A DNA stretch of 63,875 nt, filler included, from Blastocystis sp. subtype 4 (taxonomy: Eukaryota): the NCBI RefSeq assembly GCF_000743755.1. It is 51 parts of 51 records of this genome, joined end to end, with 100 filler letters (N's around TTAATTAATTAA, not from the genome) between each part and the next. Parts side by side here need not be neighbours in the genome. Positions count along the whole stretch, not along the records: positions 35,596 to 36,650 come from NW_014568573.1; 50 more parts are not named here. One strand, written 5' to 3'. The position numbers and the translations under genes are program-made. Numbering within the stretch: the stretch's first letter is position 1; each line of letters opens with the position of its first letter. The notes beneath the pieces are model-generated. The model was not told the DNA's origin. It saw only the letters and a list, made by a program, of their open reading frames with translations, and did not search any database. Positions 18,951 to 55,074 of this stretch are shown piece after piece.

Positions 18951-19934
18951 GTGTTACAAATGATCCAGTAGAAGAAACAGAGAATAAAGGAAGAGCATAC
19001 AAATCATTGAATGGTGTAGGAGGATTTCGAACTCAAGCAGTTAGTTGTGATAAGTTGCGTGCTGTTAGAACAAAGAGATTGGCATTGTAGCATGATATTG
19101 TTTTGTTGTTGTTTGACTTTGTGTGTTCGTTTAGTCATTTGAACATGCCAGGAGTTCGTATGAGTGATTTGCGTTCGGTTCAGTTTGATGTGTGTGATGG
19201 TGATGATGAAGTAGTATCAATCGCTTCAGACATCTATACCAACATCCGTTTGAGTGTGAACGGAAGGTTTAAGTTAAACAGCATTAACTGGAAGGTTTAA
19301 GGTGCTATGCAGTTGCTCCGCAACTCGCTGATAAGTTGATGTTAGATTCTTTTCATTTTGAATCGATTAATCAATTCACCGTATTCACTTTGTATATGTA
19401 AGGAACAAACAAGTGAATACGGTGAATTCACCAATGATTGATGGATTTCTCAAAGATCGACAACCAAACCACTATAAAGGGTGTCGATATTATGGTCTGG
19501 GTGTCGATAATTGTTGAATAAACGATCTAAAAGAATGGTTGGTGAATAGTTTTATGGGGATTTTAGTGTTTTCTGGGTGTCGATGATGAGGCTAGCGTGT
19601 CGATAATTATGAAAATGATCTTAGAAAAGTGAAAAGAATTGGAGTATTCACCAATTCACTTCATTTCTCAAAAGTCTTTAAAGATCGACACCCAAACCCA
19701 TTTATCGATACCCAGATAACAATCATGGTATTATTGAGACATTACTTACAAACCATCTCCCGTATTTCTATTCAGTTATCTGAACATCAAAAATAGACCA
19801 TATTTTTGCACAGATTTAGCGGTTGTTCGTCACCCTGTTTACTTAACCATTTTTGCACATATTTATTGCGTCAGCTCAAGGAGGTGTGGCACTTGCGCCT
19901 CGCCCTCCGCAGAGCACGCATGGACTCAGGGCTC
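18951..19934 (+). mobile_element. Terminal segment of an unclassified element: ORF end, small ORF (MPGVRMSDLRS..), iteron-like repeats and GC-hairpin terminus
   Basis: Small ORF also at 29480-29578 (-); 19838-19934 matches 55343-55441 and 57790-57888 with unrelated flanks beyond ...CAGGSCTC. Confidence 0.55.
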
Positions 19935-34374: not shown

Positions 34375-34525
34375 TGATTTCATTATCAAATGATGTGTAT
34401 GTGTATGTGTTGATAATCCCATTACTCTTAACAATAATCTGATCTGCATTCTTGTATACAATTCCTGAAGCAGATGTATCAACTGCTCGTATCTTTCCAT
34501 CCTGATTTAAGTAGAGGATACTCAT
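34375..34525 (-). CDS. Hypothetical intronless protein, N-terminal fragment
   Basis: MSILYLNQDGKIRAVD..; preceded by a TAGAAACAT..GTTT motif also found upstream of the 35316 ORF. Confidence 0.35.
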
Positions 34526-35040
34526 TTTACTTATTCGAAGAATAAGAAAACATGTTTCTACTTAATAAAAAGCCAAATCACTATTTGCTACTTTTACTTT
34601 GTAAAAGGAAACATGTTTCTACTATGTAAAGGCAAAATGGATCGATATGGGGAAATGGAAAATCGACTAAATCAACCCGTCACCTTTCATTTAAAAAGGC
34701 CCATAAATAAGCTTGATCATGGGGTGAAAAAGTGACGGAGTGACGGGTGACGCATGAATTTTATAAAACTCTTTCAAAATGGTAAAATGGAAAGGTATAA
34801 ATGGGTCGATTTTCCATTTTGACATATTTTGTAAAACTTTTCAAAACTACCCGTCACCCGTCACTCCGTCACTCTTCCCTATGATTTGGCTAGATTATCT
34901 AGATGTTTTAGCTATATTATTTAGGAAAGGTGACGGGTGAATTGTTGGTGATTTTCCATTTCCCCATTTTGCAAAATCACCTCCACCCGATTTTCCATTT
35001 TGACCAAAGTGAATAATCAAATGAATAATCAGCCATACAG

Positions 35041-35316
35041 CTATAAACGCTCAATCAAATAGTGTTTTACATATCCATTCACTTCTTGTAGGCTAATGCC
35101 TGATGTATGGATGATATCTGATACAAGATTGCTCTTCTTAAGGAATGTAATTGTGTTCTTGGATAACGAGAACTTCTGTGTTCCTGTCTGATCATTTACT
35201 TTGGTTGTGAAGTACCGGTACACACGGAAATAGCCTTCATGTTGATTGAGGTAATCTATCATGTCAGATTCCAATGTGAATCGCTTCTCAATAGGGATTG
35301 CACCAGTTGAATTCAT
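35041..35316 (-). CDS. Hypothetical small intronless protein between inverted repeats
   Basis: ORF MNSTGAIPIEKRF..; start at 35316 inferred from AAAATG context and the shared upstream motif. Confidence 0.4.
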   Translation of the reverse strand: MNSTGAIPIEKRFTLESDMIDYLNQHEGYFRVYRYFTTKVNDQTGTQKFSLSKNTITFLKKSNLVSDIIHTSGISLQEVNGYVKHYLIERL

Positions 35317-35595
35317 TTTTCTTACTAAGTAAAAAGGAAACATTTATGTTTCTATGGAGAAATAATCAGATGGAGGGTGAAAGGGATGAATGGGTTGATT
35401 TTCCAAATTAGCAACTTGATTTTGCAAAATGGATTGATTTTCCAAAATAGCAAAATGGAAAATCATCAACAATTCACCCGTCACCTTTCCTAAATNNNNN
35501 NNNNNNNNNNNNNNNNNNNNNNNNNNNNNNNNNNNNNNNTTAATTAATTAANNNNNNNNNNNNNNNNNNNNNNNNNNNNNNNNNNNNNNNNNNNN

Positions 35596-36650
35596 TTTCA
35601 TCAAACAGATATGCACAAACATCTTGTTTAATATGCATCAAATAATCAATGAATGGTATCAAATCTCTTTCATCTTCATGTTCAGCATGAAATACCTTAT
35701 ATTCTGTTTTCACATTATCAATCTTTGATACAGTAACACATGATAATAGAATAGGTTTATGTTGTTTGTCCTTATCAATACAACATTCAAAATCTGCATA
35801 TACAACTACAGGAACAGGCATTGTATATCTTTGATTTTGCCATTTCAAATATGTATTACTATCACCCAATATGTATCGTTCTTCTTCAGGTACTTCATCT
35901 CCATGCATTTTGATTTCATGAACAATTGTGTATTTCTTAGCAGCAGAGAAATCACACCAACGACATTTACACAATCTAGCTGTATTACGTTGAACATTAT
36001 CCTTACTACGATACAAATGTTGTTTNAACTTACTCATATCCTTAATCAACACAAAATGTTTCACCTTCAAATGTTCATCATTCAAGATACAAAGATTCAC
36101 TTCTTGTTTAATATCAATTCTTTGATTCTTCTTAACAGGATATACACATTCTACAACCATCTTTTCAAGATTCTTCTCATCCATACTCTTCATATCAAAT
36201 CCATCAAACATTCTCATTTCATAACAGTTGATATAAACATTCAGTAGATTCTCCAATTCCTCGAATTTCTCTACACATTCTATGAATGGTTGATTATCAG
36301 CAATATTCATAGCATTCTCAATTTCAAGTATTGTATGTCCAAATACAGGATTCTTGATTGGTTTGTTCCAATACTTACTATAACCTGATACTCTTGTAGT
36401 ATTACAATTCTTGATAATCGATGAACCATTATAAGCAAGTATCAAACATCGTTGTAAACAACGATTATCATTGATACAAGGATTAACAACACATTCACCA
36501 AGAATAGCAGGAGTTTTAATACCAGCTCCAACATATACCTTTAAAGGCAACAGATTCATTTGTACACCTAGATTTCCAACATATCGCCATCCAGAACCCA
36601 TCATTTCAATTCCTTCAATTGCTTCTTCATAGAACTTAAGGAAACATTTG
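35596..36650 (-). CDS. Protein-primed family B DNA polymerase, N-terminal/exonuclease region (Polinton/Maverick/adintovirus type), partial
   Basis: Ordered motifs GSGW..PL..P....N...DNRC, HFVLIKDMS, CxxC..H Zn finger, PVVVYADFEC (Exo I); open across the contig, intronless, AT-rich. Confidence 0.8.
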
Positions 36651-54240: not shown

Positions 54241-55074
54241 TAGTAGTAGTGTTTTGACGCATGTTACGTATTTTTATTATCCAGACAAACCGTCGCAAAC
54301 ATGGGCCTCCAACCCTGGGTAGCTATACACGCTTAACCNNNNNNNNNNNNNNNNNNNNNNNNNNNNNNNNNNNNNNNNNNNNTTAATTAATTAANNNNNN
54401 NNNNNNNNNNNNNNNNNNNNNNNNNNNNNNNNNNNNNNACCTCCCCCATTTTCACTAAATTCCCCTTAACGAATCTATAACTAATTTTTACCAAACCAGC
54501 CTACCCTACTCAATCCAACCTACATTAAGCAACCACTCTCCCCTCTACTAACATTAATCAACTAGTATCTTTACCCCTTAATCCCCTTTATACATCAACA
54601 ACGTATATTTGAAGTCTGTTTGATTGTTTCTTCTGATCACATATTAGTAGTAGCAACTGCACACTTGGCCTCTGGCCTTTGTAGGAACTATCTTCTCATC
54701 ATTCTGGTATTCATCATCTATTCTCATTCACACAATGTCTGTTTGAGAACGGTGTCTCATCCACATACTCGGTCATCATTAGGACCTAACTTATGAATGT
54801 GAAATGCTACCATTCTCACCCAAACTTCGTGTTGTCAGGGTATATCGTTCATTTCATGAGAAGTCACCCTACTATTCTTTAACAGGAATAGTGTTTGGAT
54901 TCATGAACTCTCAACCAATCACTCGAGACTGGGACCACTCGGGAACTAGTCCAAGGCCTTAATGGTATGAACGTTAAGTGCCCTCTACGGCATCTAAGTA
55001 GTGTTTATCAACAACCCTAACAATCCATGTATTCATTATCAACAATCATTTCAGCATTCCCCTTAATTCACAGT

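What the first reader, a model, noticed from the sequence alone, without database searches (positions are those of the whole stretch)
35596..36650. Endogenous Polinton/Maverick-type virus: protein-primed PolB fragment
Seen: an intronless AT-rich frame open across the whole contig, in a genome whose genes are otherwise dense with 30-nt introns. Established: the motif order GSGW ... N.D..C ... HF.LIKD ... CxxC/H finger ... PVVVYADFE is typical of the N-terminal and Exo I part of Polinton/adintovirus pPolB. Inference: an endogenous (or co-sequenced) polintovirus; the intact frame suggests it is recent. I do not know whether such elements are documented for this lineage.
Basis: partly seen in the sequence, partly recalled or inferred. 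Interest (0 to 1): 0.7.

Follow-up and report, generated by a model that had tools for sequence, protein, structure and literature searches.

The report
Integrated DNA virus of gut Blastocystis
This is a piece of the DNA-copying gene of an already catalogued virus (Blastocystis MELD virus, a Polinton) that sits at several places in the chromosomes of a common gut protist, and whose particle-maturing protease is likely made only by slipping out of frame from the gene before it.

Summary
Confirmed. The 1,055-bp contig is a 351-codon open frame on the minus strand, 98-99% identical to residues 307-657 of a 1,602-aa protein-primed PolB. It spans the end of the predicted terminal-protein domain, an OTU-fold protease with Cys/His, a C2H2-like finger and Exo I. 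Near-identical (about 99%) gut-metagenome contigs give the element: rve integrase, double-jelly-roll capsid, ATPase, adenain-like protease and an (AGT)3 end. Its capsid is letter for letter that of the GenBank 'Blastocystis MELD virus' (Starrett 2021), so the virus is already known. It is endogenous: another contig of this window joins its terminus to an intron-bearing Blastocystis ST4 gene, three metagenome contigs show other junctions, and strain BT1 has at least four capsid-gene copies. This addresses the host doubt raised in a 2026 review. One point was not found in the papers searched. The ST4 protease frame has no ATG and lies -1 to the upstream core gene behind a CG-A8-G run invariant in 5 of 5 lineages, which predicts a core-protease fusion by slippage. 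Target-site duplication, virions and expression were not shown.

The parts
35596..36650 (-). Internal fragment (aa 307-657 of 1,602) of the protein-primed DNA polymerase B of Blastocystis MELD virus; the whole contig is one open frame
36587..36598 (-). GSGW loop after a helix; its Ser is the predicted priming (linking) residue at the end of the terminal-protein domain (inferred)
   Evidence: GSG invariant in 15 of 15 rows; model helix 2-12 then loop, pLDDT below 50 there; position rule from 10.1101/2024.03.18.585575 section 6
36029..36511 (-). vOTU-like cysteine protease domain (model aa 47-207), predicted catalytic Cys64 (36458-36460) and His198 (36056-36058)
   Evidence: VIA: 17 of the top 18 rows titled OTU, the other 'ubiquitin protease', best Z 7.3, rmsd 3.1, 106 aligned; Cys and His in 15 of 15 rows
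35903..35965 (-). CxxC...HxxxxH C2H2-like zinc finger
   Evidence: sequence; weak Pfam zf-C2H2_16 E 0.074
35786..35800 (-). Exo I motif YADFE of the proofreading exonuclease (motif name recalled)
   Evidence: shared with animal Polinton PolBs
54242..54338 (+). Terminus of the same element, starting (AGT)3; first 97 bp of the predicted terminal inverted repeat, on a separate contig (44)
   Evidence: 98-100% to the element's left end in L001, L003, L004; TIR inferred from the contig fork
53335..54241 (+). Host flank of the insertion: Blastocystis leucine-rich-repeat gene with 29-30-nt introns
   Evidence: only hit Blastocystis sp. BT1 WA171_000753, 78%, E 6.5e-88; 4 intron-like units

Best explanation
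The contig is an internal piece of the protein-primed DNA polymerase gene of Blastocystis MELD virus, a Polinton/Maverick-type DNA virus of about 22 kb that is integrated at several chromosomal sites in Blastocystis subtype 4. How it likely works. The rve integrase likely inserts the linear, inverted-repeat-bounded genome into host DNA (junctions shown, enzyme activity inferred). The PolB likely primes replication on the Ser of the GSGW loop in its own terminal-protein domain. The OTU protease encoded here would then cut that domain off the polymerase (inferred from Krupovic et al. 2024). The ATPase would package DNA into double-jelly-roll capsids, and the adenain-like protease would mature them by cutting the GG-A-repeat core protein. 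That protease is predicted to be made as a core-protease fusion through a one-base slip on a conserved CG-A8-G run, more likely polymerase slippage than a structured ribosomal frameshift.
For: Identity. The fragment is 98.3-99.1% identical to 14 of 14 full-length cluster members read, including a Blastocystis BT1 (ST4) protein. BFVD best hits are MELD-virus and adintovirus PolBs, E 5e-38 and 9e-10. Full-length PolB carries DANNLY, KLLANSIYG and GQDTDS. Same virus as the deposited one. The L003 capsid is the exact sequence of DAC81490.1; core 336/338 and protease 174/176 identical to DAC81488.1 and DAC81487.1. Gene set. rve E 4.7e-11; capsid model matches iridovirus, Sputnik, PRD1 and mavirus MCPs, best E 5.7e-10; ATPase homologue with weak Pox_A32 E 0.0035. 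Integration. Four different flanks join at the same (AGT)3 base; the window's flank is an intron-bearing ST4 gene. BT1 has 3 exact capsid accessions and 1 partial, plus consecutive PolB, integrase and core locus tags, with listed longest contigs of 0.88-2.05 Mb. TIR. In run X1 a 223-bp contig starts exactly at the terminus and forks into two interiors; a 23-kb relative ends in an 85-bp inverted overlap. Recoding. No Met in 168 codons of the ST4 protease frame. A 12-nt block is invariant in 5 of 5 lineages at 64% mean column identity, it is the only A8 run in the ST4 element held, and the -1 phase is kept through length changes.
Against: The PolB fragment and the terminus are on separate contigs here, so the link between them rests on other assemblies. 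The PolB of the deposited Blastocystis MELD virus was not among the 15 listed members (40 read of 1,031). OTU fold scores are modest (Foldseek best E 0.068; Z below 8), and Cys-His geometry was not measured. The target-site duplication and the ST4 right end were not seen. Damage exists: of 6 near-identical loci, L002 has a split PolB, L005 a foreign N-terminus and L006 lacks about 260 bp of the left end (some may be assembly errors). A minority core variant of 315 aa, including one BT1 copy, ends as if one A of the run were missing. No stimulatory RNA structure follows the run (z -1.0 to +1.2). Virions and transcription are not shown.
Confidence: 0.93

Rival explanations
1. The fragment comes from a free (episomal or co-sequenced) linear virus genome rather than from an integrated copy.
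For: Many relatives assemble as 20-23-kb contigs without flanks. In X1 the TIR contig begins exactly at the terminus, which free ends would also give. This contig has no flank.
Against: The same assembly has a host junction (contig 44). BT1 carries several copies with Mb-sized contigs listed. Collapsed multi-copy proviruses give the same contig pattern. The two states can coexist.
Confidence: 0.12
2. The copy sampled here is a decaying relic, and its intact frame reflects collapsed short-read assembly.
For: 3 of 6 near-identical loci are damaged. BT1 has a partial PolB and a partial capsid. The contig is only 1 kb.
Against: Versus L003, L004 and L006 keep all 11 tested genes full length and stop-free, and L001 the 8 it fully holds. 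Differences lean synonymous, e.g. 10 synonymous to 2 non-synonymous for L001/L003, though one pair is 3 to 7. The family is recent whichever copy this is.
Confidence: 0.25
3. The protease is expressed without recoding, from a non-AUG (TTG) start, its own promoter or a spliced mRNA, and the A8 run only encodes a lysine-rich localisation signal.
For: 4 of 5 lineages have an in-frame Met at the protease core. Gene callers give 139-aa forms starting at Leu. No downstream RNA structure. AAA AAA AAG is the commonest KKK coding in these genomes, 4 of 14, though these 4 are likely the sites themselves.
Against: ST4 has no Met at all. Protease-frame residues upstream of the Met are conserved (K..L....T[YH]GY). 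The nucleotides, including the CG before the run, are invariant. A -1 frame this long occurs in at most 1% of control positions in 4 of 5 loci, 15% in the GC-richer L012. The lineages share ancestry, so these are not independent trials.
Confidence: 0.25
4. The contig is a contaminant from a bacterium, a phage or an animal Polinton.
For: One relative sits in a Lachnospiraceae MAG.
Against: That contig is a whole 23-kb element bounded by an inverted repeat, so mis-binning is likely (inference). The terminus has no exact match in GTDB genomes or IMG/VR. The PolB groups in a long-stem clade (SH-aLRT 100) with ST4, ST1-cluster and MELD-virus proteins, apart from animal Polintons at 28-36% identity.
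Confidence: 0.02

Closest known systems
Blastocystis MELD virus (GenBank TPA, DAC81487-DAC81490; Starrett et al. 2021, PMC8502044)
   Same: Capsid 100%, core 99%, adenain 99% identical to the element carrying this PolB; described there as Alpha-adintovirus-like PolB plus integrase with divergent virion proteins.
   Different: In the passages read, the paper gives no subtype, junction or copy number for it. Its adenain is deposited as 'partial', a stop-to-stop frame with no start; here it is explained as a predicted slippage fusion.
MELD virus sp. PolB DAD57283 / A0A8S5L5J7
   Same: Same clade, same domain order.
   Different: 55% identical over the fragment; 1,762 aa; different gene order in its relative L007.
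Polintons/Mavericks of animals (Alpha adintoviruses)
   Same: pPolB with TP-vOTU-Exo-Palm order, rve integrase, ATPase, adenain, DJR capsid, (AGT)n end (PMC8097293; 10.1101/2024.03.18.585575).
   Different: PolB core only 28-36% identical. Longer PolB (1,602 aa versus about 900-1,500). Capsid not recognised by Pfam. Protease lacks its own start.
Predicted Hexon-Adenain (-1 frameshift) fusions in adintoviruses (Buck et al. 2024 preprint, PMC11071296)
   Same: Protease predicted to be made by -1 recoding from an upstream virion gene.
   Different: Here the partner is the core protein, not the hexon; the site is a conserved G-A8 run with no downstream structure, and the case rests on cross-lineage conservation rather than a KnotInFrame prediction.

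Membership tests
Polinton/Maverick (polintovirus) | [quoted passage not shown] | tested here: met
   Full-length 99% homologue with Exo I and Pol A/B/C motifs (motif names recalled); BFVD hits to MELD/adintovirus PolB; DNA_pol_B_2 only in 1 of 10 relatives; TPR1/TPR2 not examined
Polinton/Maverick (polintovirus) | TP-vOTU N-terminal extension with intact Cys/His | tested here: met
   OTU fold at aa 47-207; Cys/His in 15 of 15 rows; TP part truncated, low pLDDT, inferred only
Polinton/Maverick (polintovirus) | Retrovirus-like (rve) integrase | tested here: met
   PF00665 E 4.7e-11 in L003; not in the window itself
Polinton/Maverick (polintovirus) | Double jelly-roll major capsid protein | tested here: met
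   Model (pLDDT 59) matches DJR MCPs, 133 matches at E<=0.001, best 5.7e-10
Polinton/Maverick (polintovirus) | Single jelly-roll minor capsid protein | not tested
   Candidates (369-aa and 182-aa ORFs) had no informative Pfam hit; no fold jobs left
Polinton/Maverick (polintovirus) | A32/FtsK packaging ATPase | tested here: met
   ST4 C-terminal part 71% identical to a full-length relative; relatives weakly hit Pox_A32, E 0.0035 and 0.015; ST4 N-terminus lies beyond the DNA held
Polinton/Maverick (polintovirus) | Adenain-like cysteine protease | tested here: met
   H..D..Q..C frame (motif order recalled), 99% to deposited 'adenain, partial'; no Pfam hit
Polinton/Maverick (polintovirus) | Terminal inverted repeats with (AGT)n/(AG)n ends | tested here: inconclusive
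   (AGT)3 left end shown at 4 junctions; TIR of about 223-260 bp inferred from contig forks; right end of the ST4 element not held
Polinton/Maverick (polintovirus) | 6-bp target-site duplication | not testable with these tools
   Only left junctions were available; the records could not be searched further
Blastocystis MELD virus (same species) | Near-identical virion proteins | tested here: met
   100%, 99%, 99%
Blastocystis MELD virus (same species) | Near-identical PolB | tested here: inconclusive
   The deposited PolB did not appear among the 15 listed of 40 read (1,031 members)
Programmed -1 ribosomal frameshift | X_XXY_YYZ heptamer in frame | tested here: met
   A_AAA_AAG in the core frame in 5 of 5 lineages
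Programmed -1 ribosomal frameshift | Downstream stimulatory hairpin/pseudoknot | tested here: not met
   MFE z between -1.0 and +1.2 for 50 and 80 nt in 5 of 5; pseudoknots not modelled

The most novel reading that the evidence does not exclude
Blastocystis ST4 carries a currently mobile, particle-forming DNA virus as a multi-copy provirus, one member of a genus-wide Polinton lineage, and it makes its maturation protease only as a core-protease fusion through slippage on an invariant CG-A8-G run, a Gag-Pro-like dosing strategy in a DNA virus. It would be the first DNA virus of the commonest human gut protist that can be tested in culture.
Probability: 0.35. Interest if true: 0.65.

Novelty: already known. 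Interest (0 to 1): 0.4.

Why it matters
The virus sequence is already in GenBank, so the finding as given is not new. Two things are added. First, a 2026 review (PMC12835684) calls the source of the Starrett Blastocystis viral genomes unclear; host-virus junctions in an intron-bearing ST4 gene and several BT1 copies tie this virus to ST4 chromosomes. That makes the old question of virus-like particles in Blastocystis testable in a cultured strain. Second, the start-less 'partial' adenain has a concrete and cheap-to-test explanation: a conserved slippage site fusing it to the core protein, which would set the protease-to-core ratio in the particle.

Tried and rejected
Pfam on the fragment: no DNA_pol_B_2. 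PDB sequence search with the PolB profile: 0 hits. IMG/VR scans with the fragment, the PolB alignment, the terminus and the capsid alignment: nothing. GTDB scan with the terminus: nothing. No whole genome is held for the window, so copy number in this assembly is open. The HMMER representative search never ran, so distant relatives were sampled only by word search. The atlas look-ups for the KilA-N and protease proteins did not complete. RNA-labelled run X17 covers 16 of 30 bins as contigs, which does not show transcription. Read depths are no copy numbers. Window contigs 16 and 29 were tested as parts of the element: only short matches (71 bp at 90% to variant L009; 24 bp), so not assigned. 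L029 (E 6e-4, 43 aa) was dropped as chance. The PolB tree is the quick version, midpoint-rooted, 39 of the 120 listed proteins plus 2 cluster members included by choice, and is used only for the clade. Earlier-findings searches returned nothing. Literature: ten full-text searches found no paper on ST4 integration or a core-adenain fusion; the library lacks most subscription papers. In Bellas 2023 (PMC10120064), ten Blastocystis assemblies appear only in the table of screened genomes in the part held; that file is cut, so a detection cannot be excluded. The Starrett supplement held is cut and names no Blastocystis; its figure maps were not visible.

Full report
Observation. The window is a string of 51 short contigs separated by artificial spacers. 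The finding is contig 30. It is one stop-free frame of 351 codons on the minus strand with a single N, with a chance probability near 3e-15. Pfam gives only a weak C2H2 finger.

What the protein is. A search of longer proteins returned 10 hits among 649 candidates. The best is a 1,602-aa protein 99% identical over the whole fragment. Its cluster has 1,031 members; of 15 listed, two are Blastocystis sp. BT1 proteins on a 980-kb contig, and BT1 is subtype 4 (PMC10690189, passages). The full protein carries Exo I and polymerase motifs A, B and C (motif names recalled). DNA_pol_B_2 hits only 1 of 10 relatives. A model of the fragment built on a 15-row alignment (pLDDT 70) matches MELD-virus and adintovirus PolBs in BFVD (E 5e-38 and 9e-10). 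Residues 47-207 match OTU proteases. In VIA, 17 of the top 18 rows are titled OTU, best Z 7.3, rmsd 3.1, 106 aligned; Foldseek alone is weak, best E 0.068. Cys64 and His198 are kept in 15 of 15 rows, some of them near-duplicates. Krupovic et al. (10.1101/2024.03.18.585575; passages and sections 5 and 6) describe polinton pPolB as TP-vOTU-Exo-Palm, with a linking Ser or Tyr in a Gly/Pro loop after helix 2 of TP. The fragment starts with a helix followed by an invariant GSG. I infer that this Ser primes replication and that the OTU domain releases TP. Neither step is tested.

The element. One metagenome scan gave 27 loci, six at 97-100%; their DNA is 98.5-99.2% identical to the contig. L003 shows the gene set. 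It starts with three small ORFs, one of 163 aa resembling poxvirus-I3/DUF5871 clusters by atlas features (a lead only), then PolB and two small ORFs. Next come an rve integrase (E 4.7e-11), a 369-aa ORF and a 425-aa ORF that folds as a double jelly-roll capsid (best E 5.7e-10). The rest is an 868-aa ORF, a 338-aa protein with eight GG-A motifs, an adenain-like frame and a packaging ATPase cut by the locus end.

It is a known virus. The L003 capsid is the exact sequence of DAC81490.1, Blastocystis MELD virus (21.7-kb record listed for its adenain). The core and protease are 336/338 and 174/176 identical to DAC81488.1 and DAC81487.1. Starrett et al. 2021 (PMC8502044; passages and section 10) describe it in a few sentences. 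The deposited PolB itself was not among the members listed, so identity of this gene is by linkage. A quick tree of 39 PolB cores puts the ST4 protein, a second MELD virus and an ST1-containing cluster in one 26-row clade (SH-aLRT 100), apart from animal Polintons.

It is endogenous. Window contig 44 ends with the first 97 bp of the element (54242-54338). L001, L003 and L004 join the same (AGT)3 base to three other flanks. (AGT)2 is the commonest Maverick end in vertebrates (PMC8097293, passages). The window's flank is an LRR gene with four 29-30-nt intron-like units, and its only hit is a BT1 protein at 78%. BT1 holds three exact capsid accessions and one partial, and consecutive locus tags for PolB, integrase and core. 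In run X1 a 223-bp contig starts at the terminus and forks into two interiors, as a collapsed TIR would; X2 and X3 fork near 260 bp. The stretch is held at half its words or more by 16 of 24 listed runs, among them rat gut, mouse gut and wastewater metagenomes; 11 rows may be the source itself. Whether the four junctions are strain-specific or fixed is open: X12 carries the L003 junction too. No TSD could be read. Against uniform intactness, 3 of 6 near-identical loci are damaged. A 2026 review (PMC12835684, passages) calls the source of the Starrett genomes unclear; these junctions address that for ST4.

A predicted recoding site (outside the window, same element). The ST4 protease frame has no Met in 168 codons and is deposited as 'partial'. 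It lies -1 to the core gene and is open back across CG-A8-G, which reads A_AAA_AAG in the core frame, 84-96 nt before the core stop. The same 12 nt are invariant in 5 of 5 lineages that hold both genes (ST4, L007, L008, L012, L028) in an alignment of 64% mean column identity. The -1 phase is kept although the spacer to the protease core varies from 37 to 60 codons. It is the only run of eight A in the 16.4 kb of ST4 element held. Such an open -1 frame occurs at 0-1% of control positions in four loci and 15% in L012; the lineages are related, so this is not five independent trials. No stable structure follows the site, which favours RNA-polymerase slippage adding one A, as known from potyvirus and filovirus A-runs (recalled), over a structured ribosomal frameshift. 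Either route gives a core-protease fusion at low ratio. Against: 4 of 5 lineages have a Met at the protease core, and a minority 315-aa core variant ends as if one A were lost (inferred from the protein end). Buck et al. (PMC11071296, passages) mention predicted Hexon-Adenain frameshift fusions in adintoviruses; a core-adenain fusion was not found in one search. I put the fusion at about 0.7.

Verdict. The virus is already deposited, so novelty is low. The junction evidence, the domain reading and the predicted slippage fusion give moderate interest, 0.4.

Noticed in passing
L003:16839-17343 and equivalents in L004, L006, L007, L008, L012, L028: Invariant CG-A8-G run in the core gene with the start-less protease in the -1 frame: predicted core-protease fusion by slippage.
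   Followed up: yes
Proteins P0098 cluster (7 of 7 full-length checked) and P0099 cluster (3 of 3): Full-length PolB relatives that keep the OTU Cys/His but lose polymerase motif A, motif B and the GSG priming context; P0098 also loses Exo I and alters DTDS. Its full-length members sit on contigs of 6.0-6.6 kb, suggesting a small element with a dead polymerase.
   Followed up: partly
L008:8641-9522 and L012:933-1844: KilA-N genes (Pfam E 5e-10) in relatives of this virus, although the egovirus preprint (10.1101/2024.03.23.586382, passages) says KilA appears restricted to Parabasalia polintons. The hosts of these two contigs are not shown.
   Followed up: partly
window 34375-35495 (contig 29): A 320-bp imperfect palindrome and a 61-bp inverted repeat flanking a 100-aa ORF of no known family (35041-35343, minus); shares a 24-bp motif with the virus TIR. 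Possibly a small non-autonomous element.
   Followed up: partly
window 19370-19720 (contig 16): Imperfect palindromic repeats, with 71 bp 90% identical to the start of L009, an 89%-identical variant of the virus with a different left region.
   Followed up: partly
L028 / G001 contig C142: A whole 23-kb relative with 85-bp inverted ends sits in a Lachnospiraceae MAG of GTDB, likely mis-binned.
   Followed up: partly
L001, L003, L004 flanks and window contig 44: All four left junctions lie in or next to expanded MORN/LRR-type gene families, which may mean an insertion preference or only the abundance of these families.
   Followed up: no
window contigs 4, 6, 8, 11, 14, 15, 17, 20, 33, 34, 35, 46: Many paralogous fragments of large repeat-rich surface-protein-like genes, fragmented by the assembly (family not identified).
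   Followed up: no
L005:1-1500: PolB N-terminus replaced in frame by unrelated sequence; chimera or misassembly.
   Followed up: no
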